DNA of 64,000 nt from a virus, in IMG/VR virus record IMGVR_UViG_3300033066_002009, positions 8,961 through 72,960 of that record, one strand, 5' to 3'. The notes beneath the pieces were generated by a model that worked only from the letters and a program-made list of their open reading frames with translations, did no database searches and was not told the origin of the DNA. Positions within the stretch are counted from its first letter, which is position 1. Every line of letters begins with the position of its first letter. The translations under genes and the position numbers were made by a program. This document shows positions 20,006-51,130 of the stretch, in pieces.

Positions 20006-20521
20006 ATGCCAAGGTATCTCATTCAGACCTTTTCCTCTGATCCAGGTGGTGAAGATTTCAATTTCTCTTACGCAATAGTGGAAATAGATAAAGAACTCGC
20101 TGAAATCATTTTGCGGCGTCGAGAGCTTTATAACGACGTTGCCTTGTGTGAGCCAAGCCTTTGCGTAATGCTTTACATGTCTTTTGTCGATGAGTGGTAT
20201 TCTTCGTTAAAGGATAAGGACGGTAAGTCGGTTTTGCCGGAAGATCTTCAGCAATTCTTCGACGGCCACAACTGGGTTAAGTTGCCAGATGACTTCGAGA
20301 TGCCGCCCGAGCCTGAGAGTGAAGATTCGGATTATTACCGAGTCACGGAAAACAATTTGATGCGGATTATGGACGACGGCGTTTTGTGGAGCTGTATCCC
20401 AAGGCACAGCACTATCAAAATAACAACCGAGGCGCTCCCTTACTGGGTTGTGCAGGAGGTACTTGGAATTGGTGAAGCAAGTGATAGTGATCCGGAAGGA
20501 TCTAAAAATGAGGCGCGGTAA
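20006..20521 (+). CDS. hypothetical acidic protein
   Basis: RBS GGAGG. 171 aa. Confidence 0.45.
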   Translation: MPRYLIQTFSSDPGGEDFNFSYAIVEIDKELAEIILRRRELYNDVALCEPSLCVMLYMSFVDEWYSSLKDKDGKSVLPEDLQQFFDGHNWVKLPDDFEMPPEPESEDSDYYRVTENNLMRIMDDGVLWSCIPRHSTIKITTEALPYWVVQEVLGIGEASDSDPEGSKNEAR

Positions 20522-20867
20522 GGAGATTGCGCAAGGAGCCCATGCGGCAATGAAGTGGCTGTCGGACCGTCTCTATTTTTCCAAAGGGTATAATGAGACA
20601 CATACCCGAGAAATGGCCGGCGGACTTTCAGACGCTGAATTTGAGTGGCTTGAGGGCTCTTTTACTAAGGTCTGCGTTCAAGTTGATTCGAAGGAAGAAC
20701 TGTTGGATGTGTACCGTTCAGCACGCGCTTTGGGAATAGTCGCTTCGTTGATTACGGACGCCGGTCTCACTGAATTTAGCGGCGTTCCGACGGAAACTTG
20801 TTGCGCGATCGGACCTGATTACGCAGAGAGAGTGGACGAGGTTACGGGACACCTTAAACTCTACTGA
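20472..20867 (+). CDS. peptidyl-tRNA hydrolase PTH2 family
   Basis: RBS AGGAGG. Motifs VIVIRKDLKMRRGKEIAQGAHAA, TKVCVQVDS...ETCCAIGP and C-terminal TGHLKLY, which is the PTH2 signature. Exact start uncertain (20463-20509). Confidence 0.6.
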   Translation: MKQVIVIRKDLKMRRGKEIAQGAHAAMKWLSDRLYFSKGYNETHTREMAGGLSDAEFEWLEGSFTKVCVQVDSKEELLDVYRSARALGIVASLITDAGLTEFSGVPTETCCAIGPDYAERVDEVTGHLKLY

Positions 20868-36676: not shown

Positions 36677-37216
36677 CTACGCCTCTTCTTCCATCTCTCC
36701 GTGCCAATACATTACATCACGAAGCCACGTTCTCCACTGATCCGGCATCCCTGGCCGCCACGTCAATGTAATCCTCAACGTCCCTGGCATTTTCTTGGGC
36801 CGAACTGGAGTGGACAAAAGTCGCATCCCTACTTTCGCGGGGCTGTGCATTCCCTTTTTTTGATTACAGGGCATGCAGCACACGACGATGTTTTCCCAGT
36901 TCGTCTTTCCGCCTAACGCACGCGGCGTTACGTGGTCGTACGTGAAAGCGTCCCGCGGGACTTTCTGCCCACAGTACTGACAGCAGCCCTTGTCTCGGGT
37001 GTAGATGTTCTCCTTCGAGAACCTCACGGCCCTATTGGTGCGAGACACAATCTTTAGAAGCCGGATAACTGCCGGCATCCTTAACTCAAATGTAATATAT
37101 CTGTCAGGGTATTCTTCGACTACTTCGGCCTTGTTCTTGATAATCAAGCGCAAAGCCCTGCTCCATTTTACGCGAGCATGGGGCGCCCAGCTCGCGTTCA
37201 GCACAAGCGTTTCCAT
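36677..37216 (-). CDS. HNH homing endonuclease
   Basis: Minus-strand RBS AAGGAG. Motifs CCQYCG, YDHVTP and GGKTNWENIVVCCMPCNQKKG. Confidence 0.75.
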   Translation of the reverse strand: METLVLNASWAPHARVKWSRALRLIIKNKAEVVEEYPDRYITFELRMPAVIRLLKIVSRTNRAVRFSKENIYTRDKGCCQYCGQKVPRDAFTYDHVTPRALGGKTNWENIVVCCMPCNQKKGMHSPAKVGMRLLSTPVRPKKMPGTLRITLTWRPGMPDQWRTWLRDVMYWHGEMEEEA

Positions 37217-37242
37217 TTACTCGCTCCTTTCCATCGTAACAG

Positions 37243-37316
37243 TGCCCACGGTGAGATTCGAACTCACACTTGACGGGGTTTGAATCCGTTGCCTCTGCCA
37301 GTTGGACTACGTGGGC
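37243..37316 (-). tRNA. tRNA with Leu anticodon CAA but short variable arm (type-I architecture). A31/C39 mismatch.
   Basis: Acceptor GCCCACG/CGTGGGC, T-arm GTGAGTTCGAATCTCAC, loop TTCAAAC, variable region only 5 nt. Confidence 0.55.
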
Positions 37317-37321
37317 GTTTG

Positions 37322-37403
37322 TGCGGTTGGAGGGAGTCGGACCCTCACGTCACTAGGACACTGGCTTCTAAGACCAGCGCGTATACCATTTCGCCACAAC
37401 CGC
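37322..37403 (-). tRNA. tRNA-Leu(TAG), type II
   Basis: Acceptor GCGGTTG/CAACCGC, loop CTTAGAA, long variable arm. Confidence 0.85.
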
Positions 37404-37442
37404 AAGATTATTTAAATATTGGTAATAGTAAATGTACGTCTA

Positions 37443-37547
37443 TATGGAGGCCACAGATGGATTGGCGAAGTTGAGTGAGAAATTCGGAGGGGCCCTGTGG
37501 TTCCGGTTAAACGCAAACGACGAACAACAGCTCTCCGAATTTTTTTA
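37443..37547 (+). ncRNA. candidate small RNA (AT-rich promoter-like region to terminator)
   Basis: TTGGTAATAGTAAATG upstream. Long hairpin ATTCGGAG...CTCCGAAT followed by T7 at 37541-37547. Confidence 0.3.
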
Positions 37548-37548
37548 G

Positions 37549-37623
37549 TGGCACCAGAGGGATTCGAACCCTCACTCAACAGTACCTCAAACTGTCGCCT
37601 CTGCCAAGTTGGGCTATGGTGCC
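37549..37623 (-). tRNA. tRNA with Leu anticodon GAG but type-I (short variable arm) architecture
   Basis: Clean cloverleaf. Acceptor GGCACCA/TGGTGCC, anticodon stem ACAGT/ACTGT, loop TTGAGGT, variable region TGAGT, T-arm GAGGGTTCGAATCCCTC. Confidence 0.75.
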
Positions 37624-37628
37624 GTTTG

Positions 37629-37702
37629 TGCTCAGGGTGGGAGTCGAACCCACACTCCGCGGGGCTTAAATCCGCTGACTCTTCCAGTTGGTCTACCTGA
37701 GC
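37629..37702 (-). tRNA. tRNA with Leu anticodon TAA (or 9-nt loop), type-I architecture, A31/C39 mismatch
   Basis: Acceptor GCTCAGG/CCTGAGC, T-arm GTGGGTTCGACTCCCAC, loop TTTAAGC. Confidence 0.55.
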
Positions 37703-37707
37703 ATTGG

Positions 37708-37780
37708 TACGGCCCGTGGGGATCGAACCCACCGCGACTTCCGTGTAAAGGAAGCATCACCTCCAGGTGAACTGGGCCGC
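37708..37780 (-). tRNA. tRNA-Val(TAC)
   Basis: Acceptor GCGGCCC/GGGCCGT, loop TTTACAC, CCA encoded. Confidence 0.8.
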
Positions 37781-37784
37781 ATGT

Positions 37785-37794
37785 TGGTATAAGG
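37785..37794 (+). promoter_or_regulatory. promoter-like motif TGGTATAAGG
   Basis: Precedes the 5' stem of sRNA-A by 6 nt. Confidence 0.5.
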
Positions 37795-37798
37795 AAAT

Positions 37799-37899
37799 GC
37801 AACGGGAACGCCGGTCGCACGACCGCTCGTGGAAACTTCCTGCCATGGTTGCTCGCCTTGGGCGGACAAGCTACATCGGCTCCCGTTGCAGTTTTTTTT
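37799..37899 (+). ncRNA. structured small RNA A (~101 nt; 5'/3' closing stem; Y-RNA-like architecture)
   Basis: The 5' sequence GCAACGGGAAC pairs with GCTCCCGTTGC immediately before T9. No ORF. Confidence 0.5.
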
Positions 37900-37901
37900 A
37901 G

Positions 37902-37970
37902 TCGCCGTGGAGATATTCGAAATCTCGTGACCGTTCTTATGAGGAACGTCCCTGTCCTACAGTCACGGCG
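37902..37970 (-). tRNA. tRNA-Met-like (CAT) with truncated D-arm (69 nt)
   Basis: Acceptor CGCCGTG/CACGGCG, anticodon stem CGTTC/GAACG, loop CTCATAA, T-arm GAGATTTCGAATATCTC. Confidence 0.55.
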
Positions 37971-38055
37971 ATTGGTTGCGGGACCAAGTGTTGCACCTTG
38001 GATCGGATCTGGCTTATGAGGCCGATCTGGGAAACTATGCCTACCCTTCCCGCGG

Positions 38056-38127
38056 TGTCCCTGGCCGGATTCGAACCGGCTCTTGTCGCTTAGGAGGCGA
38101 CTGCGCTGTCCATTACGCTACAGGGAC
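38056..38127 (-). tRNA. tRNA-Arg(CCT)
   Basis: Acceptor GTCCCTG/CAGGGAC, stem GTCGC/GCGAC, loop CTCCTAA. Confidence 0.8.
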
Positions 38128-38134
38128 GTCTTGG

Positions 38135-38206
38135 TGTTCTCGGCGAGATTCGAACTCGCAATACAGGCTTCGGAGGCCCGCGTGATGTCCATTTCACCAC
38201 AAGAAC
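38135..38206 (-). tRNA. tRNA-Arg(CCG)
   Basis: Loop CTCCGAA, D stem GTGA/TCAC, CCA encoded. Confidence 0.85.
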
Positions 38207-38211
38207 GTTGG

Positions 38212-38285
38212 TGGCCCTAGAGGGACTCGAACCCCCACAATCCTGGTTCCGTAGACCAGTGCACTGTCCATTATGCTATAGAGCC
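38212..38285 (-). tRNA. tRNA-Arg(ACG)
   Basis: Stem CTGGT/ACCAG, loop CTACGGA, CCA encoded. Confidence 0.85.
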
Positions 38286-38290
38286 ATTTG

Positions 38291-38374
38291 AGGAAGATGG
38301 AGGATTCGAACCCCGAGCCTTTCGACCCACCAGTTTTCAAGACTGGCTGTCCCTGCCTGTGGACTGCATCTTCC
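38291..38374 (-). tRNA. tRNA-Ser(TGA)
   Basis: Stem CCAGT/ACTGG, loop CTTGAAA, long variable arm. Confidence 0.85.
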
Positions 38375-38389
38375 ATTTTACTACTATAG

Positions 38390-38460
38390 TGCCGATAGCA
38401 AGAGTCGAACTTGCGTCTCGCCCTTACCGGGGGCGAATTCTCCCATTGAACTATACCGGC
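38390..38460 (-). tRNA. tRNA-Thr(GGT)
   Basis: Stem CGCCC/GGGCG, loop CCGGTAA. Confidence 0.85.
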
Positions 38461-38465
38461 ATTGG

Positions 38466-38537
38466 TGGACCCGAAGGGAATCGAACCCTCAGCCTTCGGC
38501 TTGCAAAGCCGCTGCACTCCCGTTGTGCTACAGGCCC
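38466..38537 (-). tRNA. tRNA-Ala(TGC)
   Basis: Loop TTTGCAA, G3:U70 wobble in the acceptor stem, CCA encoded. Confidence 0.85.
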
Positions 38538-38541
38538 ATTG

Positions 38542-38612
38542 TGGAGTTGAAGGGAATCGAACCCTCATTCCGGCGATGCGAACGCCGTGTTCTCCCGTTG
38601 AACTACAACCCC
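38542..38612 (-). tRNA. tRNA-Ala(CGC)
   Basis: Stem CGGCG/CGCCG, loop TTCGCAT, G3:U70. Confidence 0.85.
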
Positions 38613-38618
38613 GTTCAG

Positions 38619-38690
38619 TGCGCCCAGAAGGAATCGGACCTTCTACCCCTCCCACGTCAAGGGAGTGTTCTGCCAGTGAACTATGGGCGC
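38619..38690 (-). tRNA. tRNA-Val(GAC)
   Basis: Acceptor GCGCCCA/TGGGCGC, stem CTCCC/GGGAG, loop TTGACGT. Confidence 0.85.
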
Positions 38691-38880
38691 GAACGTTTCT
38701 TTCGAGCAGGCACTACATCCGTTAACACGTCTTTAGGCCGTTCCTCATCTACCGTATTGCTGCAGTCTTGGCAATACGTGATTAATCTTTTTTCTGTTAC
38801 GTGTACAAATAGCTCAACTTTCACGCCGCGGTTAGTGAGGCAGTTCGGACAGATCCTCATCAGTTGATACTACCATTTAG

Positions 38881-38951
38881 TGGAGCCGGCGGGAATCGAA
38901 CCCGCGTTCCGACAATGCCATTGTCGTGTCTTCCCGTTGGACGACGGCCCC
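38881..38951 (-). tRNA. tRNA-Ala(GGC)
   Basis: Stem CGACA/TGTCG, loop ATGGCAT, G3:U70. Confidence 0.85.
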
Positions 38952-38953
38952 TT

Positions 38954-38964
38954 GGTATAAGGGA
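38954..38964 (+). promoter_or_regulatory. promoter-like motif TGGTATAAGGG
   Basis: Drives the downstream small Cys-rich gene. RBS AAGGAG follows. Confidence 0.5.
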
Positions 38965-38985
38965 TTGAACAGACAAAGGAGTGTT

Positions 38986-39222
38986 ATGACCCCGCGAATT
39001 GCATTTGTCGTTCTGTTGGTGTCCTTGGCTATTCTTGTAGGCGGGATGTTCAACATGACCCGCTTCACAAGCACGGCTGACGCCTCCTGCAGGGAACCGG
39101 CCACCGACCGGAATGGCTTCACCGAGTGCTCCAAGTGGGTCGCATGGTGCACCTGCATGGGAGGCAACATATCATGCGTCAGCACGGACCGCGTGAGCAA
39201 GGTGCACTGCATCCTGCGGTAA
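38986..39222 (+). CDS. small secreted/membrane Cys-rich protein
   Basis: RBS AAGGAG. N-terminal hydrophobic segment, then CREP...CSKWVAWCTCMGGNISC. Followed by a terminator. Confidence 0.5.
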   Translation: MTPRIAFVVLLVSLAILVGGMFNMTRFTSTADASCREPATDRNGFTECSKWVAWCTCMGGNISCVSTDRVSKVHCILR

Positions 39223-39236
39223 TCGAAGACCACATT

Positions 39237-39268
39237 GGCCGCGACGCTTCGGCGTCGCGGTTTTTTTG
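39237..39268 (+). terminator. rho-independent terminator
   Basis: Hairpin GCCGCGACGCTTCGGCGTCGCGG followed by T7. Confidence 0.7.
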
Positions 39269-39277
39269 GTTAAAATT

Positions 39278-39351
39278 GTGCCCCGAGTTGGAGTCGAACC
39301 AACATATTCGGCTTTTCAGACCGATACTCGTACCACATGAGTTATCGAGGC
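39278..39351 (-). tRNA. tRNA-Phe(GAA)
   Basis: D stem ACTC/GAGT, loop CTGAAAA, T-arm GTTGGTTCGACTCCAAC. Confidence 0.85.
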
Positions 39352-39354
39352 GTG

Positions 39355-39549
39355 TTAATCAATATTTGCCGAAGCGTCCCGTGGCACACAAACTCCTCGA
39401 CCGGCATCTGTCGTAATGTGGCAAATTGGGTAGTTGGTTTGTTTGCACGGCGAACATCCGGTTCCACAACACACGTTTGGACCCGTATTTTCGGTCGTGA
39501 GGCACCCCGGTGTGGTTAATGCGCACAATGCAAATAAGAGCGTTTTCAT
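39355..39549 (-). CDS. small secreted Cys-rich protein (possibly leaderless)
   Basis: Signal-peptide-like N-terminus, then CCGTGCSPC. Minus-strand TATAAT lies 6 nt upstream of the ATG. Confidence 0.35.
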   Translation of the reverse strand: MKTLLFALCALTTPGCLTTENTGPNVCCGTGCSPCKQTNYPICHITTDAGRGVCVPRDASANID

Positions 39550-39564
39550 GCGTTAATTATAGGG

Positions 39565-39637
39565 CGCCCCTGATGGGAATCGAACCCACCCAGTCTTGAT
39601 TGACAATCAAGCGTTCCCGCCAGGGAACCTCAAGGGC
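39565..39637 (-). tRNA. tRNA-Asp(GTC)
   Basis: Stem CTTGA/TCAAG, loop TTGTCAA, discriminator G. Confidence 0.85.
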
Positions 39638-39644
39638 AATTTGG

Positions 39645-39717
39645 GTGAAAATCGGGGGTCGAACCCGAACCTCCTGGTTCACAGCCAGGCGTGCACAGCC
39701 GGTACACCATGATCACC
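39645..39717 (-). tRNA. tRNA-His(GTG)
   Basis: Stem CCTGG/CCAGG, loop CTGTGAA, extra 5' G opposite discriminator C, T-arm TCGGGTTCGACCCCCGA. The acceptor stem has two mismatches. Confidence 0.65.
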
Positions 39718-39725
39718 GTAAATAC

Positions 39726-39736
39726 GGTAAAAGAAT
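39726..39736 (+). promoter_or_regulatory. promoter-like motif GGTAAAAGAAT
   Basis: Precedes the 5' stem of sRNA-B by 7 nt. Confidence 0.5.
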
Positions 39737-39739
39737 TAG

Positions 39740-39879
39740 TCGAGACGGACCTACAGTATCCTCCCCACGGCTTGTCAGCCCATTGGGCGGTGGTCTTCCG
39801 TTCTGCCGGGACCCGATCCTCCCTCGCAAAGGGCGGGCGCCACCACGAGGCTCTCCTGCCTCCGTCTCGATGTTTTTTT
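39740..39879 (+). ncRNA. structured small RNA B (~140 nt; 5'/3' closing stem)
   Basis: The 5' sequence TCGAGACGGA pairs with TCCGTCTCGA immediately before T7. No ORF. Confidence 0.5.
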
Positions 39880-39881
39880 GG

Positions 39882-39952
39882 TCCGCCACCAGGGAATCGA
39901 ACCCCGATTGCTCGCTAATCAGGCAAGCGTCCTACCGTTGAACGAGTGGCGG
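39882..39952 (-). tRNA. tRNA-Ile(GAT)
   Basis: Loop CTGATTA, CCA encoded. Confidence 0.85.
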
Positions 39953-39959
39953 ATGTTGT

Positions 39960-40010
39960 GGCCAAAAAAAGAGGAGGCGCAAGCGTCTCCTCTTTCCGGC
40001 CCCCTTTCGG
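39960..40010 (-). terminator. rho-independent terminator (two hairpins) for the coiled-coil gene
   Basis: On the - strand: AGGCCCCCGAAAGGGGGCC and GGAAAGAGGAGACGCTTGCGCCTCCTCTTTTTTT. Confidence 0.6.
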
Positions 40011-40018
40011 GGGCCTAA

Positions 40019-41056
40019 CTACGCGCGGCCGGGCTTCTGCTGCCCCGCGCCGTTGCTGCCCTGCTGGAAGGCCTGCGCGGCCTCGTACGCCTTGCGGTCC
40101 GAGACGGCCTCGAACGCCTTGCTGGTCATGTCGGCGATCCTGCCGTGCGCCTCGGCCAGCTTCTGGTTGGCCGCAGCCAGCTGCGACTGCAGGCTCTCGT
40201 TCTGCGCCTTGAGCTGCGCCACGTTCGCATCGGCGAGCGCCTGGGTCTTCTCGAAGCCCGCCTTCTCCAGCGCGAACTGCGCGTTCATCTCCTTCGAGAC
40301 GGAGCTGGTCGCGATCTTCACCGCGGTGTCGACCGCCTTCTTCACCTCGGCGTCGAAGCTGGCCGCCTTCTCCTGCAGCTGCTTCAGCTCGACCTCGCGC
40401 GTCTTCAGCGCCTCCTCGCGGGTCGCCCAGTCCTTGGTCAGCGCATCGATGCGGTCGCGCTCCTGATTCTTGCGGACGCGCATCTCATCTTCGAACTTGT
40501 CCAGCACGGCGCGCTGAGCCTGGGCCGTCTTGTAGTTGAACTCCTTCTCGTCCCGCGCGTGGCGCTCGTTGGCCTCGGCCACACGGGCGCTGAAGTCCTT
40601 CTGCCACGCGTCCTGCTGCTCCTCCCAGCGCGCCTGGGTCTGCTGCACGTTCCGCTGGAACTCCGTCACCAGTCGATCGTGGTCGGCGACCAGCTCGAGG
40701 ATCGTCTTCTTCGCGGTATCGACACCGTAGAGCTGCTCGATCTCCTCGGTGATCGCGTCCTTGAGCGCCTGCACGTCGTCCAGCTCCTGCCACGCCGCCG
40801 TGAGCTTGGGGACGATCCCCTGGATGATGCTGGAGAGGTCGAGGCCGGTCTTGGTGAGATCGGTCACGAGGCTCTCGAGGTTGGCACCGCCGATGCGCTT
40901 CTTGATGCCGCTGATGCGCTCGTCCTCGATGGCCTGCTCCTTCGCGATCACCGGGGAGATCGGCGCAGCCACCTCGGCCTGGAGCTGCTCGAAGGTCTTC
41001 TTGGCCGCCGTCTTGGTGCCGCCGCTCTTGCTGCTCTTGCCACGCGTATTCGCCAT
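40019..41056 (-). CDS. coiled-coil protein (Gln/Glu/Ala/Lys-rich heptads)
   Basis: Minus-strand RBS AGGAGA. About 345 aa, predicted alpha-helical coiled coil throughout. The start could instead be at 41074. Confidence 0.55.
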   Translation of the reverse strand: MANTRGKSSKSGGTKTAAKKTFEQLQAEVAAPISPVIAKEQAIEDERISGIKKRIGGANLESLVTDLTKTGLDLSSIIQGIVPKLTAAWQELDDVQALKDAITEEIEQLYGVDTAKKTILELVADHDRLVTEFQRNVQQTQARWEEQQDAWQKDFSARVAEANERHARDEKEFNYKTAQAQRAVLDKFEDEMRVRKNQERDRIDALTKDWATREEALKTREVELKQLQEKAASFDAEVKKAVDTAVKIATSSVSKEMNAQFALEKAGFEKTQALADANVAQLKAQNESLQSQLAAANQKLAEAHGRIADMTSKAFEAVSDRKAYEAAQAFQQGSNGAGQQKPGRA

Positions 41057-41162
41057 GTTCCTGGTCTCCTGCAAAAAAAGATGCGTACGTTGACGCCGCA
41101 GACGTCACCACGACTTCTGCGTTGTGCATCTTCTTCTACCAAGCACTTGACGTTTTTAATGG

Positions 41163-41236
<74 letters not shown>

Positions 41237-41332
41237 ATGCTGCGTTGCGCCTCCTACCCCGAGCTTTCCAGCGGAATGAACCGCTTCGGGTGTAGTACCC
41301 ATGCAGGTTGGACGGCGCTCCTCCGTGATTGG

Positions 41333-41406
41333 TCGGCGTAGCTGGATTCGAACCAGCGATCCCTCGCTCCCAAAGCGAGTGCGATACCAGACTTCGCTAT
41401 ACGCCG
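41333..41406 (-). tRNA. tRNA-Pro(TGG)
   Basis: Stem CTCGC/GCGAG, loop TTTGGGA, CCA encoded. Confidence 0.85.
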
Positions 41407-41425
41407 AATTTAGGTAAAAGGTTTT

Positions 41426-41548
41426 GCGGATACACGTCTTATTGGCGGTATGGCTGCCAATGTTTGAAGCGATTTACCGGCACGAGAAGAGCCCCGGTGC
41501 AGCTGCGTTGGTCCTCATATCGGGCTCATCGATAAGCCGTGTGTCCGC
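41426..41548 (+). ncRNA. structured small RNA C (~123 nt; 5'/3' closing stem; no T-run terminator)
   Basis: Motif AGGTAAAAGG lies 6 nt upstream. The 5' sequence GCGGATACACG pairs with CGTGTGTCCGC at the 3' end. Confidence 0.4.
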
Positions 41549-41553
41549 GTTAG

Positions 41554-41625
41554 TACCCCGTACCGGATTCGAACCGGCGTCCTCGGATTGAAAGTCCAAG
41601 TGTCCTTCCCATAGACGAACGGGGT
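41554..41625 (-). tRNA. tRNA-Glu(TTC)
   Basis: Stem TTGGA/TCCGA, loop CTTTCAA. Confidence 0.75.
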
Positions 41626-41631
41626 GTCCAG

Positions 41632-41702
41632 TGACCCTGGAGGGAATCGAACCCTCGTTTTTTGGCTGAGAACCAATTTGCCTACCATTAGCAGACAGGG
41701 CC
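41632..41702 (-). tRNA. tRNA-Glu(CTC)
   Basis: Loop TTCTCAG, T-arm GAGGGTTCGATTCCCTC. Confidence 0.8.
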
Positions 41703-41747
41703 TAATGCGGGTAAAAGTTAGTAAGGACCCCTCACAAAGGAGAGTGC

Positions 41748-42401
41748 ATGAAGACGTTGATCGTTACCCTGGCCCTGCTGGTGCTCCCTGCCGCGGCAGG
41801 CTGCGACATTCCAAGGCCGCCAAACGGCAGCATCACCTGCAGTCCCATGTTCCAGTGCCCCGAAGACGCCGACAACCCTGGCACGTTCATGAAGTGCTGC
41901 TGGGACAATCGCTGCTACCGCGGCGACTGCCCACCGATGGCGCCGGGCGCCAGTCCGGTGTGCCCCGACAAGCAGAAGGACGCCCGGGAGGTCGACATCG
42001 ACTGCGGCGCCGCGTCCTGCCAGACGTGCGCGGTCGGCAAGATGTGCGAGTCGGACGCCGACTGCGCCAGCAACTTCTGCTACAACAGTCGATGCACGGC
42101 CACGCAGGATCCCTGCAACAACGGGGTCATCGACGGCCTCGAGACTGCCGCCGACTGCGGTGGCGGGGAATGCCCCCGCTGCGGCAATGGCAAGGGATGT
42201 ATCAGCGGCAACGACTGCGTGTCCACGCACTGCATCGGCATGGTCTGCACTTCGATGAACCTCTTCTCGCCCCTCGACGACGTCGACTTCAAGGGGCAGG
42301 AGAGCCGGGTGCCGTGGCACCTGCGTCCGCTCAAGAAGATGACGGACGACGACTGGCGACAGGCCGTCGAGGCAGCGGAGAAGTCCCAACGTTCCACCTG
42401 A
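41748..42401 (+). CDS. secreted lipoprotein with tandem Cys-rich repeats (CxxCxxGxxCxxDxDCxSxxC)
   Basis: Motif GGGTAAAAGTT, then RBS AAGGAG. Signal peptide with lipobox LPAAAGC. Three or more Cys-rich repeat modules reminiscent of myxobacterial-type Cys-rich repeats. Confidence 0.6.
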   Translation: MKTLIVTLALLVLPAAAGCDIPRPPNGSITCSPMFQCPEDADNPGTFMKCCWDNRCYRGDCPPMAPGASPVCPDKQKDAREVDIDCGAASCQTCAVGKMCESDADCASNFCYNSRCTATQDPCNNGVIDGLETAADCGGGECPRCGNGKGCISGNDCVSTHCIGMVCTSMNLFSPLDDVDFKGQESRVPWHLRPLKKMTDDDWRQAVEAAEKSQRST

Positions 42402-42432
42402 TGTAGACGGGCGGGGTGTATCAAGCCCTGGG

Positions 42433-42464
42433 AGGGTCCGGCTGTATCGCCGGGCCCTTTTTTT
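42433..42464 (+). terminator. rho-independent terminator
   Basis: Hairpin GGGTCCGGCTGTATCGCCGGGCCC followed by T8. Confidence 0.7.
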
Positions 42465-42466
42465 GG

Positions 42467-42534
42467 ACCACCGCCGGGGAGTTGAACCCCGCTACGCCGG
42501 GTTGCAATCGGCGGCCATCCCGGATGCGCGGCAG
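42467..42534 (-). tRNA. tRNA-Cys(GCA)-like with shortened D-arm (68 nt); alternatively reads as TGC
   Basis: T-arm CGGGGTTCAACTCCCCG, discriminator U, loop TTGCAAC with A31/C39, G3:U70 in the acceptor stem. Confidence 0.45.
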
Positions 42535-42540
42535 ACTTTG

Positions 42541-42612
42541 CTCCAGAGGTAGGACTCGAACCTACGTCTCACCGGTTAACAGCCGGGCGCTCTGCCATTG
42601 AGCTACACTGGA
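42541..42612 (-). tRNA. tRNA-Asn(GTT)
   Basis: D stem GCTC/GAGC, loop CTGTTAA, discriminator G. Confidence 0.8.
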
Positions 42613-42625
42613 ATGAAACTACGGG

Positions 42626-42697
42626 AGCCGGCTACGAGAATCGAACTCGTTACCACCTGCTTACAAGGCAGGCGCTCTGCCAATGAGCTATGCCGGC
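42626..42697 (-). tRNA. tRNA-Thr(TGT)
   Basis: Stem CCTGC/GCAGG, loop CTTGTAA. Confidence 0.85.
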
Positions 42698-42715
42698 ATT
42701 TTGGTATAAGTATTT

Positions 42716-42826
42716 GACGACCGCGGGCAAGAAACTCAGGCCAAGGCTGACCGCAGTACTTGGAGCCAAAAGCTCCGCTCTCTGACGGATCCTCGGCAAA
42801 GGGGTAAGCCCGCAGTCGTCTTTTTT
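42716..42826 (+). ncRNA. structured small RNA D (~111 nt; 13-bp 5'/3' closing stem)
   Basis: TGGTATAAG lies 6 nt upstream. GACGACCGCGGGC pairs with GCCCGCAGTCGTC before T6. Internal hairpin GGAGCCAAAAGCTCC. Confidence 0.55.
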
Positions 42827-42828
42827 AG

Positions 42829-42899
42829 TTCCGGGACAAGGACTCGAACCTTGATAGGCGGCTTCAGAAACCGCCGTCCTGCCATTAGACGATCCCGGA
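42829..42899 (-). tRNA. tRNA-Gln(CTG)
   Basis: Acceptor TCCGGGA/TCCCGGA, loop TTCTGAA. Confidence 0.8.
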
Positions 42900-42917
42900 A
42901 TGTTGGTACAAGGATTT

Positions 42918-43023
42918 GACCCTACCACGCACGGTGTTGAGCCTCGTGCTCCTCTCCTCGCGCCCCCATACCCCGTGGGGGAGTTCGGCGTTCCGCTGTG
43001 CGTGACTGGGGTCACTATTTTTT
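42918..43023 (+). ncRNA. structured small RNA E (~106 nt; 5'/3' closing stem)
   Basis: TGGTACAAGG lies 6 nt upstream. GACCC..ACGCACGG pairs with CCGCTGTGCGT..GGGGTC before the T run. Confidence 0.5.
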
Positions 43024-43025
43024 AG

Positions 43026-43096
43026 TTCCGGTGGAAGGAATCGAACCTCCGTAGCAGGCTTCAAAGTCCCGCGTCCTGCCATTGAACGACACCGGA
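43026..43096 (-). tRNA. tRNA-Gln(TTG)
   Basis: Acceptor TCCGGTG/CACCGGA, loop CTTTGAA. Confidence 0.8.
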
Positions 43097-43169
43097 AAAA
43101 CTACTTACGCCCTGTTAGCCGCACACGCGGGCGTACCGTGTCACTCACTAAGACGGCGTTTCATCTTTG

Positions 43170-43240
43170 TGCGGGTAGGGAGAATCGAACTCCCGTGACC
43201 AGTTTGGAAGACTAGCGTTCTACCATTGAACTACACCCGC
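43170..43240 (-). tRNA. tRNA-Gly(TCC)
   Basis: D stem GTTC/GAAC, loop CTTCCAA. Confidence 0.85.
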
Positions 43241-43245
43241 GTTAG

Positions 43246-43318
43246 TGCCCCCGGTGGGAGTCGAACCCACAACTAACCGATTAAAAGTCGGCTACGCTGC
43301 CAATTGCGTCACGGAGAC
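43246..43318 (-). tRNA. tRNA-Lys(TTT) second copy
   Basis: D stem ACGC/GCGT, loop CTTTTAA, T-arm GTGGGTTCGACTCCCAC. Confidence 0.8.
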
Positions 43319-43323
43319 GTTGG

Positions 43324-43395
43324 TGGCGTGGGCTGGATTCTCACCAGCACTTCGAGCCTCTAGGGCTCGCGTCTTAAAAATTTGACCACCGCGCC
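43324..43395 (-). tRNA. degenerate tRNA-like element (anticodon loop CCTAGAG; D-loop lacks GG; T-loop TGAGAAT)
   Basis: Acceptor GGCGCGG/CCACGCC with CCA encoded. Perfect anticodon stem CGAGC/GCTCG. The conserved D-loop and T-loop nucleotides are absent. Confidence 0.4.
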
Positions 43396-43400
43396 ATTAG

Positions 43401-43473
43401 TGCCCCCACTCGGGTTCGAACCGAGATCACCCGGTTAAGAGCCGGATCGATTAGCCAATTATCGGATGGAGGC
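43401..43473 (-). tRNA. tRNA-Arg(TCT)
   Basis: D stem CGAT/ATCG, loop CTCTTAA, T-arm CTCGGTTCGAACCCGAG. Confidence 0.85.
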
Positions 43474-43585
43474 ATTGTGCAGGGCAACAGCCCTGCTATT
43501 TCGTCAAATTCCACTATTCTTTTTTCAGTTTGCCCGACTACACGGTTTTCGCATTTCGCTACTCAACTCGCCGGGTAAAACTCAG

Positions 43586-43670
43586 TGGAGCGGATAGGAC
43601 TCGAACCTATGAAGACCCGAAGGTCGACTGATTTACAGTCAGCTGTCTTTGCCGCTTGAACAACCGCTCC
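43586..43670 (-). tRNA. tRNA-Tyr(GTA), type II
   Basis: Acceptor GGAGCGG/CCGCTCC, loop CTGTAAA, long variable arm. Confidence 0.85.
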
Positions 43671-43716
43671 ATTAAAGCTCGATATTTATATACGGCCTCG
43701 AAGACCGGGTCGTTGG

Positions 43717-43788
43717 TGCGGATGGCGGGAATCGAACCCGCGGCCTGATGCTTGGCAAGCACCCGTGGTACCACTCCACTACATCCGC
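43717..43788 (-). tRNA. tRNA-Gly(GCC)
   Basis: D stem GTGG/CCAC, loop TTGCCAA, CCA encoded. Confidence 0.85.
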
Positions 43789-43792
43789 GCAG

Positions 43793-43863
43793 AGCCCTAG
43801 GGGAGAGTCGAACTCCCATTGCCTGTGTACGAAACAGGCAGTCTACCGTTGACTTACCAGGGC
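43793..43863 (-). tRNA. tRNA-Thr(CGT)
   Basis: D stem AGTC/GACT, stem CCTGT/ACAGG, loop TTCGTAC. Confidence 0.85.
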
Positions 43864-43864
43864 G

Positions 43865-43934
43865 CATGTCGCCAGGGAATCGAACCCTGAAGCAGGAGTT
43901 TTGGAGGCTCCATGGTGACCATCACCTGCGACAT
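43865..43934 (-). tRNA. tRNA-Trp(CCA)
   Basis: Acceptor ATGTCGC/GCGACAT, loop CTCCAAA, short D-loop. Confidence 0.7.
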
Positions 43935-47974: not shown

Positions 47975-47975
47975 C

Positions 47976-48024: not shown

Positions 48025-48112
48025 TGCCACCGTGTGTAAAGTCGCCTGACTTGGTCAAGCATCCAAGGTTTGCCTATAATTCACTTAACTCGTATATTGC
48101 GAGGGAGCCAAC

Positions 48113-49147: not shown

Positions 49148-49165
49148 TTAACAATTTCTATAGTA

Positions 49166-49198
49166 AAAAAAAGGCCCCATTTGGGGCCTTTTTTATTG
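49166..49198. terminator. bidirectional terminator
   Basis: A8 run, then GGCCCCATTTGGGGCC, then T6. Confidence 0.7.
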
Positions 49199-49284
49199 TA
49201 ATGCAGTACCAATAATTCCGCCTCCCGAGTGCTCCAAATGCCGGTGTATAGCGGGTATAAGAGTTATGAAAGGGAGGATTAGCT

Positions 49285-49419
49285 ATGGACACAGTCTGGC
49301 CACGACTGTGCCATGCGCTTGTCCAGATAAACCCGCTAATCATGTGGGTTCTCGATCCGGGAGGATTGCCTCCGGGGACGTGGACAGACTTGATTCGCCG
49401 GGCCCTGGCGGCGTAGGGT
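49285..49419 (+). CDS. small ORF (44 aa)
   Basis: Motif GGGTATAAGAG followed by RBS AGGGAGG and ATG. Confidence 0.3.
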
Positions 49420-49522
49420 CACATAGGGAGGTCGCCTGCCACGGCGACTTCTCTTTTTTATTTGACTAGTTGACACTGCGTACTTTGACATTGTACGGTG
49501 CAAGTGAAAGGACATGATACAT

Positions 49523-49868
49523 GGGAGTGACACGGTTTCGACAGGGATGAACGGAAAGACAAGCTGCGCGTCGAGGACGTCGTCAACCTCGTAAATACTG
49601 ACGACAAAAACAAATGCTAACGACAACGTCGACGGCAACGTGGTGAACCTGGCGGCTTTCCGTGCTAGCAAGATGGCAAAGCGTCAGGTCGGTGGTGGCA
49701 GCGTGCAGTTCCAGGCCGCGGCCTAAGCAGTGACTGTGGCTCCCTGTGGCCTACAAAACACAGGACTGTTGTGTGTAAGGCAGGCGGCGCTGGACCTCTT
49801 CCAGCTACACGCGTAGATGCTTTCTAGCCGCATTCTTGGACCCGGGTTCGACTCCCGGCACTTCCACC
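49523..49868 (+). ncRNA. ssrA: tmRNA (SsrA), one-piece
   Basis: The 5' sequence GGGAGTGACACGGTTTCGACAGGG pairs with the 3' acceptor CACTTCC. The 3' T-arm is GGACCCGGGTTCGACTCCCGG, followed by ACC. An internal tag reading frame starts at GCT AAC GAC and encodes ANDNVDGNVVNLAAFRASKMAKRQVGGGSVQFQAAA*. Confidence 0.75.
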
Positions 49869-50119
49869 TAGCGGAATGATTCCTTAGATCCTAGGCCCTC
49901 CGAGGATAGTTCCGCGAGCGTGAACGCCGACGACAAATAAAGGCGTGACTCTACAGAGAGAAGTAGCGCGTCAATTCGCGAGATCGATTGCCCTTTCACG
50001 AACCGGGATACTGCACGTGCGTTAACGTCTAACGAGACAGGCGTGACGGTGGGGAGAGTACCCACTTTTTTTAGCCTAGAGGCTGGCATGTTTTCAATTA
50101 CGCTTTTAATTATCAGTCG

Positions 50120-50353
50120 ATGAGGATGAAATTCGTGAAGGGAAGGAAATCAAAAGTGCCTGTTTTCGAAGAGAAATATGGGTATAGTGTAGTTACTCAA
50201 GATGGCCGAATCGTTAGCCACCACCGCGACATCTTAGATGCGATGCCGGTCTTGCGTACATTCTATTGTGCGAAGTTGTACAGGAACGCCGATTCAGTAC
50301 TTCTTTCCTGGATGACCCCTCCGATAAGCGTCTCTAACAGAAGGCCCTTTTAA
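50120..50353 (+). CDS. hypothetical protein
   Basis: ORF only. Confidence 0.3.
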   Translation: MRMKFVKGRKSKVPVFEEKYGYSVVTQDGRIVSHHRDILDAMPVLRTFYCAKLYRNADSVLLSWMTPPISVSNRRPF

Positions 50354-50355
50354 TA

Positions 50356-50643
50356 ATGAGCCATACCGACGCAGGGCCTCCTGTACAGATTATCGGAGAG
50401 GCCTGTGCAATTCCTAAATTGATTGAATTCACTGCGCCTACTCGACAAGTCTCTATCCGTAACACGGGAACAGAGGCGATGTGGTTTTCGTTTGATGGCG
50501 TGCATTGGTTTGACATCGCCTGCGGCACCAGTTGGGATGACCGCGTGAAGGTGGATAAAATGTGGGTAAGGACGCAAACGGGTTGGACCACGTTCGTTTC
50601 CACGGGAATCCGATTTAATTCCCTGCCGCTTGGTGGTAGCTAA
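50356..50643 (+). CDS. hypothetical protein
   Basis: 95-aa ORF linked to the neighbouring ORFs. Confidence 0.4.
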   Translation: MSHTDAGPPVQIIGEACAIPKLIEFTAPTRQVSIRNTGTEAMWFSFDGVHWFDIACGTSWDDRVKVDKMWVRTQTGWTTFVSTGIRFNSLPLGGS

Positions 50644-51104
50644 TGCCGTTTACGCATTATCCCAAGCTCGAGTTCAACATCATCGGCGCCTGGGTATCAC
50701 CTGCACCCCCGGATAAACCTAATTTTTTGCAAATGCCTCGGTTCTCTCGGGTGAACCTACTCAACAATATTGAGTTATCCGATGATCCCCCGATCCTCTA
50801 CCATTCTGCCCAGAATTTCACCCGTTTTTTCGGTTCCGTCGCCTCTGATAAAAAGGTGGAGCTTCGTTTTGACTTCTCAAATGATGATGTCCATCTCTTA
50901 GATGGAAATCCCGTCTCTGACGAGAACATCTCAAAATTGAACTACGATGCGGAGGCCATGGTTTTGAACTATGACCCATCGAAGCAAGGCGCAACAGGTA
51001 AGTATTTGGTCACGATCTATGGGCGTTGGCTTCGTGTGCAACTGAAGTTCCCCGACGGGGTTCCTTCGTACGTGCGCGCTTACGTACGTGCTTCCGTGTT
51101 CTAG
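50643..51104 (+). CDS. hypothetical protein
   Basis: Start overlaps the upstream stop. Confidence 0.45.
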   Translation: MPFTHYPKLEFNIIGAWVSPAPPDKPNFLQMPRFSRVNLLNNIELSDDPPILYHSAQNFTRFFGSVASDKKVELRFDFSNDDVHLLDGNPVSDENISKLNYDAEAMVLNYDPSKQGATGKYLVTIYGRWLRVQLKFPDGVPSYVRAYVRASVF

Positions 51105-51130
51105 GTAAAAGAATACGGAGGTATCACTGG

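What the first reader, a model, noticed from the sequence alone, without database searches (positions are those of the whole stretch)
49523..49868. Phage-encoded tmRNA with unusually long tag
This is a complete one-piece SsrA. It has a tRNA-like acceptor (GGGAGTG/CACTTCC), a T-arm and a resume codon GCU. The tag ORF is ANDNVDGNVVNLAAFRASKMAKRQVGGGSVQFQAAA, 36 aa and ending in AAA rather than the usual LAA. Together with PTH2 (20472-20867) and the tRNA array it suggests the phage manages ribosome rescue itself. The long atypical tag may target tagged proteins differently.
Basis: seen in the sequence. Interest (0 to 1): 0.65.

Follow-up and report, generated by a model that had tools for sequence, protein, structure and literature searches.

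The report
Phage tmRNA with 36-residue tag
An uncultured large phage that carries 39 tRNA genes also carries an intact ribosome-rescue RNA (tmRNA) whose 36-residue peptide tag is too long for the standard detection program ARAGORN, so the gene is real and of a known kind but invisible to routine annotation.

Summary
Window 49523-49869 (+) is a complete one-piece tmRNA: Rfam RF00023 scores 131 bits against a threshold of 47 (E 5e-51). It has a G3:U70 acceptor stem, a T-arm, pseudoknot PK1 and the resume codon GCU at 49616. The tag reads ANDNVDGNVVNLAAFRASKMAKRQVGGGSVQFQAAA, with the stop at 49724-26.

ARAGORN does not report the gene. When I trim three codons, ARAGORN calls the gene with the same resume codon. 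When I lengthen three unrelated tmRNAs past 33 residues, it loses them.

I found no close relative in the phage, viral-contig, metagenome or genome collections. Long tags are not unique, though. A small IMG/VR sample held three more tmRNAs that ARAGORN misses, with predicted tags of 34-35 residues. A published 484-kb phage has a 36-residue tag, and its 22-residue core differs from its relative only by synonymous changes.

PTH2 is confirmed. No SmpB gene was found in the window, so "the phage manages rescue itself" is only partly supported. The role of the long tag is untested.

Verdict: a new member of a known kind, at the long extreme of tag length. It also exposes a blind spot in ARAGORN-based surveys. 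Moderate interest.

The parts
49523..49869 (+). Complete one-piece tmRNA (ssrA) gene, 347 nt
   Evidence: Rfam RF00023, 131.2 bits, full-length match. ARAGORN calls it once the tag is 33 residues or shorter.
49523..49529 (+). Acceptor stem 5' strand GGGAGUG, including G3 of the G3:U70 alanine identity pair
   Evidence: Sequence. Paired with 49859-49865 in the Rfam alignment and in the MFE fold.
49534..49542 (+). D-loop analogue GGUUUCGAC of the tRNA-like domain
   Evidence: Matches the consensus GGaUUCGAC in the Rfam alignment.
49572..49604 (+). Pseudoknot PK1: stem 1 is CGAGG 49572-76 with CCUCG 49587-91; stem 2 is GUCGUCA 49579-85 with UGACGAC 49598-604
   Evidence: The Rfam alignment pairs stem 2 and conserves the CCUCGUAAAU loop. 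Stem 2 is also found in the fold. Stem 1 was read from the sequence.
49616..49726 (+). Tag reading frame: resume codon GCU, 36 codons (ANDNVDGNVVNLAAFRASKMAKRQVGGGSVQFQAAA), stop TAA 49724-26
   Evidence: Resume codon from the Rfam alignment and independently from ARAGORN on shortened variants. There is an A at position -4. Codon usage matches the phage's genes: CAI 0.82, and 13 of 13 two-fold codons end in C or G.
49646..49690 (+). Stable hairpin inside the tag frame, encoding NLAAFRASKMAKRQV. The internal '...NLAA' codons lie on its 5' strand, as the final Ala codons do in a canonical helix 5
   Evidence: MFE -20.2 kcal/mol, z -2.4, 7 of 200 shuffles fold as well. Also present in the whole-molecule fold.
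49714..49741 (+). Helix-5-like stem GGCCGCGG/CUGUGGCU with the stop codon UAA in its loop
   Evidence: Stem enumeration and fold (-12.5 kcal/mol, z -0.85, not significant on its own).
49743..49805 (+). Short region where PK2-PK4 would lie: hairpins CCUGUG/CACAGG (49743-48 with 49759-64) and GCUGGA/UCCAGC (49789-94 with 49800-05). The number of pseudoknots is unresolved
   Evidence: The Rfam alignment has low posterior probability here. There are no relatives for covariation.
49837..49869 (+). T-arm (GACCCGGG UUCGACU CCCGG), acceptor 3' strand CACUUCC, discriminator A, then CC and T (CCA not fully encoded)
   Evidence: Only about 9 of the 39 phage tRNA genes encode CCA.
49425..49454 (+). Intrinsic-terminator-like hairpin plus T-run that closes the upstream unit
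50048..50066 (+). Terminator-like hairpin plus T-run about 180 nt downstream of the tmRNA 3' end, the probable end of the tmRNA transcript
   Evidence: The trailer 49870-50047 has no Rfam match and no fold signal.
33688..43934 (.). Array of 39 tRNA genes (37 on the - strand) covering 18 amino acids; no Met or Cys tRNA was called
   Evidence: ARAGORN and Rfam.
20472..20867 (+). PTH2-type peptidyl-tRNA hydrolase
   Evidence: Pfam PF01981, E 8.1e-31, full length. Homologues occur in other tRNA-rich large phages.

Best explanation
This is a functional phage-encoded tmRNA of the standard one-piece form.

Inferred pathway:
1. It is transcribed as its own unit between two terminators.
2. RNase P and 3' trimming mature it, and a CCA-adding enzyme completes the 3' end.
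3. Host alanyl-tRNA synthetase charges it through the G3:U70 pair.
4. SmpB and EF-Tu deliver it to ribosomes stalled on broken or stop-less mRNAs. Such mRNAs should be plentiful when host mRNA is degraded or when tRNA- or mRNA-cleaving defences fire.
5. Translation resumes at GCU 49616 and adds Ala plus ANDNVDGNVVNLAAFRASKMAKRQVGGGSVQFQAAA.
6. Translation terminates at UAA, which releases the ribosome.

The main benefit to the phage is probably ribosome recycling, working alongside its 39 tRNAs and PTH2. The C-terminal Ala-Ala would still allow recognition by host AAA+ proteases.

The tag looks like a canonical 14-residue tag (ANDNVDGNVVNLAA, whose last codons lie on the 5' strand of a hairpin) that lacks a stop codon. 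It continues for 22 more residues to a second helix that carries the real stop in its loop. I therefore think the extra length arose by loss of an ancestral stop, or by duplication of the tag-end module. It may since have been kept as a spacer or an extra recognition element.

Shown: gene identity, anatomy, reading frame and tag length. Inferred: expression, charging, use of host SmpB, the purpose of the tag and its origin.
For: - Full-length Rfam match at 131 bits.
- All sequence hallmarks are intact: a 7-bp acceptor stem with G3:U70, discriminator A, T-arm, GGUUUCGAC, long helix 2, PK1, an A-rich stretch with A at -4 before GCU, and the tag start ANDN as in many bacterial tags.
- ARAGORN gives the same resume codon once the tag is trimmed.
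- The frame ends in Ala-Ala-Ala-stop, with the stop in a hairpin loop, as in canonical tmRNAs.
- Tag codons fit the phage's own codon preference: CAI 0.82 against a gene mean of 0.72; 13 of 13 two-fold codons end in C or G against a background of 0.675; P = 1e-4 against uniform synonymous choice.
- The gene is bracketed by terminator-like sites.
- An identical sequence occurs in a second assembly.
- The missing terminal A of CCA matches most of the phage's tRNA genes.
- Context is a 39-tRNA array plus PTH2, the same combination seen in known tRNA-rich large phages.
- Other large-phage tmRNAs have 34-36-residue tags, and one pair shows 8 synonymous and 0 non-synonymous differences over a 22-residue tag core. 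Long phage tags can therefore be translated and kept under selection.
- Phage tmRNAs are documented in PMC4131195, PMC7162821 and PMC9004378.
Against: - No relative of this particular tmRNA was found, so nothing here is backed by covariation or by conservation of the tag.
- The PK2-PK4 region is short (about 65 nt) and poorly aligned.
- The whole-molecule fold is no more stable than shuffles (z -0.73).
- No sigma-70 consensus promoter was found upstream.
- No SmpB gene was found in the window.
- Given the phage's own codon usage, the tag's codon bias is only marginal (P = 0.075). For the 22-codon extension alone, 7 of 7 gives P of about 0.06.
- The stop-loss origin rests on the shape of the tag and on one suggestive alignment. 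The similarity beyond the stop in that alignment is at chance level.
Confidence: 0.8

Rival explanations
1. The tmRNA works for ribosome release only, and the long tag is a neutral accident. The stop after ...NLAA was lost, translation simply runs on to the next in-frame stop, and the extension has no selected role. This overlaps with the best explanation and differs only on whether the extra 22 residues matter.
For: - The internal '...NLAA' sits on the 5' strand of a strong hairpin, like a canonical tag end.
- At this base composition about 46% of read-throughs would stay open for 22 codons (my calculation from a stop frequency of about 0.035 per codon).
- L178, a tmRNA inside a viral tRNA array, has a 35-residue frame beginning ANDNSLASA... 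with no Ala-Ala end, which looks like another run-on tag.
- From established knowledge (recalled, not looked up here): tmRNA variants whose tags do not cause proteolysis still support phage growth phenotypes in E. coli, so release matters more than tagging.
Against: - The extension ends in Ala-Ala-Ala-stop with the stop in a hairpin loop. By composition alone that has a chance of roughly 0.1-1%.
- Its codons are all phage-preferred: CAI 0.81, and 7 of 7 two-fold codons end in C or G.
- Another long phage tag is clearly under purifying selection.
Confidence: 0.3
2. The long tag is a selected, phage-specific signal. The ANDN part and the basic middle segment, joined by a GGG linker to the QAAA end, send tagged proteins to a different protease or adaptor, or protect them from host ClpXP. 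This would be comparable to the long Mycoplasma tags that are read by Lon.
For: - Tag architecture: N-terminal ANDN as in adaptor-binding tag regions, a basic block FRASKMAKRQ, a GGG linker and a terminal AAA.
- Codon adaptation across the whole frame.
- Long tags of 23-36 residues recur in large-phage tmRNAs, about 6-8 of 36 in my IMG/VR sample, against 13-20 residues in a mostly bacterial sample.
- Purifying selection on one long tag.
Against: - There is no conservation evidence for this tag.
- It has no similarity to the other long tags beyond the first residues.
- The host and its proteases are unknown.
- My samples are small and were chosen by pattern.
- The Lon precedent is recalled from memory, not tested here.
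Confidence: 0.2
3. The RNA acts mainly as a decoy that soaks up host SmpB, AlaRS or EF-Tu and blocks host trans-translation, as reported for the TLD-only molecule of mycobacteriophage DS6A.
For: TLD-only mini genes are common in viral contigs. PMC4131195 and PMC11915505 report that the DS6A form inhibits tmRNA in E. coli. No phage SmpB gene is seen in the window.
Against: This gene keeps PK1, the resume context, an open frame with a canonical end and helix 2. A decoy would need none of these, and the real decoy-like genes are only 62-125 nt long.
Confidence: 0.05
4. The gene is host DNA, either picked up at a prophage integration site in ssrA or present through contig chimerism, and is not a true phage gene.
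For: ssrA is a frequent prophage attachment site (PMC9004378, PMC11915505).
Against: - The gene lies deep inside the window between phage-like genes: a virion/Ig-like protein at 48113-49147, and gp5-like hub and structural genes downstream.
- It has its own terminators.
- No integrase domain was found among the ORFs scanned.
- There is no nucleotide match to any bacterial tmRNA I sampled.
- The tag's codon usage matches the phage.
Confidence: 0.03

Closest known systems
Standard one-piece bacterial tmRNA (SsrA; Rfam RF00023), e.g. E. coli SsrA with tag ANDENYALAA
   Same: Tested here: the tRNA-like domain with G3:U70, helix 2, PK1, a resume codon for Ala preceded by an A-rich stretch, a tag starting ANDN and ending in Ala-Ala, the stop codon in a hairpin loop, and an overall length of 347 nt.
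   Different: The tag has 36 residues, whereas the most frequent length is 10 (PMC11915505). A stable hairpin lies inside the coding frame. Only about 65 nt remain for PK2-PK4. The terminal A of CCA is not encoded. The gene is in a phage genome.
Phage-encoded tmRNAs: cluster C mycobacteriophages (Bxz1 and relatives), Bacillus phage G (PMC4131195), huge phages (PMC7162821), and 402 of 18,146 phage genomes (PMC9004378)
   Same: A complete tmRNA gene in a large, tRNA-rich phage genome that also carries other translation or RNA-repair genes. PTH2 is shared with Myrna, XacN1, Atu_ph07 and others.
   Different: There is no nucleotide similarity to any of the 50,697 phage records. All those surveys used ARAGORN, which cannot report this gene.
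tmRNAs of uncultured huge phage LR756508.1 (484 kb) and IMG/VR contig 3300005193_000001 (263 kb)
   Same: One-piece phage tmRNAs with tags of 36 and 35 residues that ARAGORN misses or miscalls.
   Different: The tag sequence is unrelated (acidic GVNNADYESAGFTAEDFAQMDGESLYHG...). Those two are relatives of each other with proven purifying selection on the tag core. The window's tmRNA has no known relative.
Long Mycoplasma ssrA tags (about 27 residues) recognised by Lon instead of ClpXP (recalled from the literature, not checked here)
   Same: An unusually long tag, which suggests a recognition mode other than the short C-terminal LAA degron.
   Different: The sequence and organism are different. 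No protease specificity is known for this tag.
TLD-only tmRNA-like gene of mycobacteriophage DS6A (PMC4131195, PMC11915505)
   Same: A phage-borne derivative of ssrA that would interact with SmpB.
   Different: DS6A-type genes lack the mRNA part. The window's gene is complete.

Membership tests
Standard one-piece tmRNA (Rfam RF00023) | Covariance-model score above the curated threshold over the full model | tested here: met
   131.2 bits against 47, model positions 1-374, E 4.8e-51.
Standard one-piece tmRNA (Rfam RF00023) | tRNA-like domain: 7-bp acceptor stem with G3:U70, T-arm with a UUCGA-type loop, GG.UUCGAC D-loop analogue, discriminator A | tested here: met
   GGGAGUG/CACUUCC with G3:U; CCGGG-UUCGACU-CCCGG; GGUUUCGAC; A before CC.
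Standard one-piece tmRNA (Rfam RF00023) | Encoded or added 3' CCA | tested here: inconclusive
   The gene reads ACCT, so the last A must be added after transcription. About 30 of the 39 phage tRNA genes also lack CCA. No CCA-adding enzyme was found in the window.
Standard one-piece tmRNA (Rfam RF00023) | Pseudoknot PK1 just upstream of the resume codon | tested here: met
   Two interleaved stems at 49572-76/49587-91 and 49579-85/49598-604, with the conserved CCUCGUAAAU loop.
Standard one-piece tmRNA (Rfam RF00023) | Resume codon for Ala or Gly in the conserved context, followed by an open tag frame that ends at an in-frame stop within helix 5 | tested here: met
   GCU at 49616 with A at -4. 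Rfam and ARAGORN agree on it. 36 codons, then UAA in the loop of stem 49714-21/49734-41.
Standard one-piece tmRNA (Rfam RF00023) | Tag of the usual size (8 to about 33 residues, mode 10) with a hydrophobic end in Ala-Ala | tested here: inconclusive
   The end QAAA fits. The length of 36 exceeds ARAGORN's built-in limit of 33 and is far from the mode of 10 (PMC11915505). Length is not a formal criterion for membership.
Standard one-piece tmRNA (Rfam RF00023) | Pseudoknots PK2-PK4 between the tag and the 3' strand of helix 2 | tested here: inconclusive
   About 65 nt with two hairpins. Possible pseudoknots can be drawn but are not supported: Rfam posterior probabilities are low and there are no relatives for covariation.
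Standard one-piece tmRNA (Rfam RF00023) | Works with SmpB; alanylated; tags proteins on stalled ribosomes | not testable with these tools
   No SmpB gene in the window. The host and the rest of the genome are not available. This needs experiments.
Known phage tmRNA lineages (e.g. cluster C mycobacteriophages) | Sequence similarity to a described phage tmRNA | tested here: not met
   No blastn match in 50,697 phage records. No exact-pattern relatives in IMG/VR. The best similarity to any sampled tmRNA is about 66% over the first 100-136 nt.
TLD-only / decoy tmRNA-like genes (DS6A type) | Only the tRNA-like domain, no tag frame, about 60-125 nt | tested here: not met
   The gene is 347 nt with PK1, a resume codon and a tag frame.

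The most novel reading that the evidence does not exclude
Large phages have evolved their own class of tmRNAs with long tags of 34-36 or more residues. These tags would act as functional peptides rather than simple degrons, for example by sending host proteins truncated during infection to a particular protease or adaptor, or by sparing them from one. The class has gone unnoticed because ARAGORN, used in essentially all phage surveys, cannot report tags longer than 33 residues. The window's tmRNA would be one member of this class.
Probability: 0.2. Interest if true: 0.7.

Novelty: new member of a known kind. Interest (0 to 1): 0.38.

Why it matters
Phage-encoded tmRNAs are already known, so this gene does not change how ribosome rescue is understood. 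It matters in two smaller ways.

1. It is a concrete case of a well-formed tmRNA that the standard tool cannot see. Published counts of tmRNA genes in phage genomes, and part of the tmRNA sequence database, start from ARAGORN candidates. Long-tag forms are therefore under-counted or given wrong tags. One example is LR756508.1, which ARAGORN calls as GRRKPLSW where the frame I infer by alignment to L145 reads a 36-residue tag.

2. Together with the other 34-36-residue tags found here, one of them clearly under purifying selection, it suggests that tag length and content in large phages deserve a systematic survey. If the long tags are functional, they would show how phages handle the flood of truncated proteins and stalled ribosomes during infection.

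Tried and rejected
- **Relatives by DNA.** blastn of the tmRNA and of 44000-64000 against phage records found nothing. Three exact or gapped patterns in IMG/VR found none or nothing related. One genome scan returned assorted ANDN-tag bacteria with no overall similarity.
- **Relatives by synteny.** The neighbouring protein 48113-49147 has only itself as a full-length match. The ligase 45566-47368 has about 58%-identical homologues on many contigs of about 200 kb, but three such loci hold no tmRNA within 10 kb.
- **Host inference.** The structural protein 57515-59386 has no phage match. PTH2 relatives are spread over phages of Actinobacteria and Proteobacteria. I gave up on naming a host, so the comparison with the host tag could not be done.
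- **Stop-loss origin.** An alignment with L066 suggested a 6-nt deletion that removed TAA, but similarity beyond the stop is no better than in shuffles. I kept it only as a hypothesis.
- **Myrna.** I looked for a tmRNA in mycobacteriophage Myrna as a comparator with PTH2. None was annotated or found by ARAGORN in the 100 kb examined.
- **Trailer 49870-50066.** No RNA family match and no fold signal.
- **ARAGORN paper.** It was not available to read, so the cap was established empirically.
- **Integration remnant or host DNA.** Rejected; see the rival explanations.

Full report
**1. Is it there?**

Yes. Rfam's tmRNA model RF00023 matches window 49523-49869 on the + strand over its whole length, at 131.2 bits against a gathering score of 47 (E 4.8e-51, repeated). 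The sequence shows these features:
- A 7-bp acceptor stem GGGAGUG/CACUUCC whose third pair is G:U, the alanine identity element.
- The D-loop analogue GGUUUCGAC.
- The T-arm CCGGG-UUCGACU-CCCGG.
- Discriminator A followed by CC and then T, so the last A of CCA is not encoded.

ARAGORN reports 39 tRNAs in the window but no tmRNA, even with relaxed thresholds. I traced this to a limit in the program:
- Deleting three or more codons from the middle of the tag makes ARAGORN call a tmRNA that starts at 49523 with its resume codon at position 94, which is window 49616 (462 deletion variants agree).
- Three unrelated tmRNAs that ARAGORN finds normally are lost, or get a wrong resume codon, as soon as inserted codons take their tags to 34 residues or more.

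The installed ARAGORN therefore cannot report tags longer than 33 residues. The gene itself is sound.

**2. Anatomy** (tmRNA position 1 = window 49523)

- Helix 2 joins the tRNA-like domain to the body.
- PK1 is formed by two interleaved stems, CGAGG/CCUCG and GUCGUCA/UGACGAC, around the conserved CCUCGUAAAU loop.
- After an A-rich stretch with A at -4, the resume codon GCU (49616) aligns to the model's resume codon with high posterior probability.
- The frame reads ANDNVDGNVVNLAAFRASKMAKRQVGGGSVQFQAAA and stops at UAA 49724-26. The other two frames stop at once or after nine codons. The start ANDN is the usual one in many bacterial tags, so the frame is not in doubt.
- A stable hairpin lies inside the frame at 49646-49690 (-20.2 kcal/mol, z -2.4). 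Its 5' strand is made of the codons for N-L-A-A.
- The last three Ala codons form the 5' strand of a second stem, GGCCGCGG/CUGUGGCU, and the stop codon sits in its loop. That is the normal helix-5 arrangement.
- Only about 65 nt with two hairpins remain before the 3' strand of helix 2. Rfam aligns this part with low confidence. Without relatives I cannot say how many of PK2-PK4 exist.
- The gene lies between two terminator-like hairpins, at 49425-54 and 50048-66. No sigma-70 consensus promoter was found, although TTGAC(T/A) occurs three times just upstream.
- A second assembly (Logan SRR32380195) is identical over 13.9 kb. This makes an assembly error in the tag frame unlikely, although it may derive from the same reads as the JGI contig.

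**3. Is the long frame likely to be translated?**

There are no homologues, so I used internal evidence.
- The 36 codons have a codon adaptation index of 0.82 relative to 24 phage genes (mean 0.72, range 0.62-0.92).
- All 13 two-fold-degenerate codons end in C or G, against a background of 0.675.
- The last 22 codons score 0.81.
- The bias is very unlikely under uniform synonymous choice (P = 1e-4). It is only marginal given the phage's own codon usage (P = 0.075).
- An ending in Ala-Ala-Ala-stop inside a hairpin loop is what a real tag end looks like. By base composition it would arise by chance in well under 1% of cases (my estimate).

**4. Context**

- The window has no nucleotide match to 50,697 phage records.
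- It encodes phage-type proteins: a gp5-like baseplate hub, an Ig-like virion protein and an M15 peptidase.
- It carries 39 tRNA genes and a full-length PTH2 peptidyl-tRNA hydrolase (E 8e-31).
- It also encodes a Ser/Thr kinase and a ligase fused to a LigD-type 3'-phosphoesterase, which sits between the tRNA array and the tmRNA.
- The ligase has about 58%-identical homologues on many metagenomic contigs of about 200 kb, so this is a member of a large, uncultured group of big phages.
- PTH2 homologues occur in other tRNA-rich large phages: Myrna, XacN1, Atu_ph07, RsoM2USA, the phiM12 group and huge uncultured phages. The combination is a known theme.
- I found no SmpB, ArfB-type or CCA-adding enzyme among about 110 ORFs.
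- Most of the phage's tRNA genes lack CCA, as the tmRNA does.

The tmRNA must therefore depend on host factors, or on genes outside the window.

**5. Relatives and comparison**

No relative of this tmRNA was found. The best similarity is about 66% over the first 100-136 nt to unrelated environmental tmRNAs.

The sampling did give useful context.
- Of about 36 full-length tmRNAs in an IMG/VR sample, ARAGORN gave tags of 8-31 residues, most often 13.
- Three further Rfam-supported tmRNAs that ARAGORN misses have predicted tags of 34-35 residues:

| Locus | Contig size | Tag length | Evidence |
|---|---|---|---|
| L189 | 183 kb | 34 | ARAGORN on trimmed variants and Rfam alignment |
| L178 | 96 kb, inside a tRNA array | 35 | One trimmed variant and Rfam alignment |
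| L145 | 263 kb | 35 | Rfam alignment only |

- L145's tag region matches the published 484-kb phage LR756508.1.
- The two tags, GTDTAYESAGFTAEDFAQMDGESLYHGAERELVHA and GVNNADYESAGFTAEDFAQMDGESLYHGSERKPAAV, share an identical 22-residue block. That block has eight synonymous and no non-synonymous codon differences.
- ARAGORN calls the LR756508.1 tag as GRRKPLSW.

Tags of 34-36 residues therefore recur in large phages, and at least one is under purifying selection. The tool used in the published surveys hides them (PMC7162821; PMC9004378, 402 of 18,146 phage genomes; candidate selection in PMC11915505). Tags ending in AAA also occurred in my samples, so that feature is ordinary.

**6. How it most likely works**

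- Shown: a complete, canonical tmRNA gene with a 36-codon tag frame.
- Inferred from established knowledge of trans-translation: the RNA is processed by RNase P and 3' trimming, completed by a CCA-adding enzyme, charged by AlaRS through G3:U70, and brought by SmpB and EF-Tu to ribosomes stalled on stop-less mRNAs. Translation switches to GCU 49616, adds the tag and terminates at UAA, which frees the ribosome.
- For a phage with its own near-complete tRNA set and PTH2, the likely benefit is keeping ribosomes and tRNAs available while mRNAs and tRNAs are being damaged.
- The tag looks like a normal 14-residue tag (ANDNVDGNVVNLAA) that lacks its stop and continues to a second tag end. I consider loss of an ancestral stop, or duplication of the tag-end module, the most likely origin (inference, about 0.4). 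An alignment hinting at a 6-nt deletion of TAA is not statistically supported.
- Whether the extra residues are neutral, serve as a spacer or act as a new recognition element is open.

**7. Verdict**

It is a new member of a known kind (phage-encoded standard tmRNA) at the long extreme of tag length, without known relatives. Its main value is as an example of a class of long-tag phage tmRNAs that standard annotation misses.

Interest is about 0.38. If long phage tags prove to be a selected, functional class (probability about 0.2), the interest would be about 0.7.

Noticed in passing
Not window-specific; tested on the window tmRNA and on L188, L230, L139: The installed ARAGORN has a hard limit of 33 tag residues. 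tmRNAs with longer tags are missed or given a wrong resume codon. Published phage tmRNA surveys rely on ARAGORN.
   Followed up: yes
L145:493-1016 (-) and L271:592-1035 (LR756508.1 92434-92877): Two huge-phage tmRNAs have 35- and 36-residue tags that share an identical 22-residue core (YESAGFTAEDFAQMDGESLYHG), with 8 synonymous and 0 non-synonymous codon changes. ARAGORN misses one and miscalls the other (GRRKPLSW).
   Followed up: partly
L189:724-1112 (+); L178:4503-4753 (-): Two further viral tmRNAs are missed by ARAGORN. L189 has a 34-residue tag, AENDTTLGDNVIPLFGARAATTFGAPTQQLAAVA. L178 is only 251 nt, lacks PK1, sits inside an array of about 28 tRNAs and has a 35-residue frame without an Ala-Ala end.
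   Followed up: partly
L143, L147, L156, L184, L216, L234, L251, L252, L256, L257 (viral); L028, L045, L106, L113, L116 (metagenome): There are many tmRNA-like genes of 62-125 nt that consist of little more than the tRNA-like domain (GGGG/GGGAGUGA...UUCGAC, then a T-arm and an acceptor end in UCCACCA). They resemble the DS6A decoy form and seem common in viral contigs.
   Followed up: no
window 30956-33595 (+): An 879-residue protein with a major-vault-protein shoulder domain (PF11978, E 1.6e-24) and a weak vault repeat hit. This is unusual in a phage.
   Followed up: no
window 45566-47368 (+): A fusion of a LigD-type 3'-phosphoesterase domain with an ATP-dependent ligase, lying between the tRNA array and the tmRNA. 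Homologues at about 58% identity occur on many metagenomic contigs of about 200 kb; one is labelled 2'-5' RNA ligase by JGI. It could be an end-healing and sealing repair enzyme.
   Followed up: partly
window 21303-22760 (+): A Ser/Thr protein kinase (Pkinase, E 9e-29) about 440 nt downstream of PTH2.
   Followed up: no
window 33688-43934: The 39-tRNA array has an HNH endonuclease gene inside it (36677-37216, -). No Met or Cys tRNA was called, and only about 9 of the genes encode CCA.
   Followed up: partly
window 38878-38951 (-): Rfam's tmRNA model also reports tRNA-Ala(GGC), at 47.9 bits and just above threshold. This is a false positive of the kind noted in PMC11915505.
   Followed up: yes
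window 49462-49490 (+): Three copies of TTGAC(T/A), at 49462-67, 49470-75 and 49485-90, lie just upstream of the tmRNA. No matching -10 consensus was found. It may be a phage-specific promoter or a binding site.
   Followed up: no
L007:19494-21149, L009:19272-20897; Myrna (L269, L270): Relatives of this phage group encode a vWA/Ro60-like protein next to their tRNA genes. Mycobacteriophage Myrna combines Ro, an RNA ligase, a CCA-adding enzyme, an RF-2-like protein and PTH2. This appears to be a recurring RNA quality-control kit in large phages.
   Followed up: no
window 15164-42389 (one of 31 ORFs, not localised): A weak hit to the fungal tRNA ligase phosphodiesterase domain (PF08302, E 2e-4). 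Elsewhere there are a radical SAM protein (15164-16048) and, in 1-15000, HD, metallophosphatase, dual-specificity phosphatase and GNAT domains.
   Followed up: no
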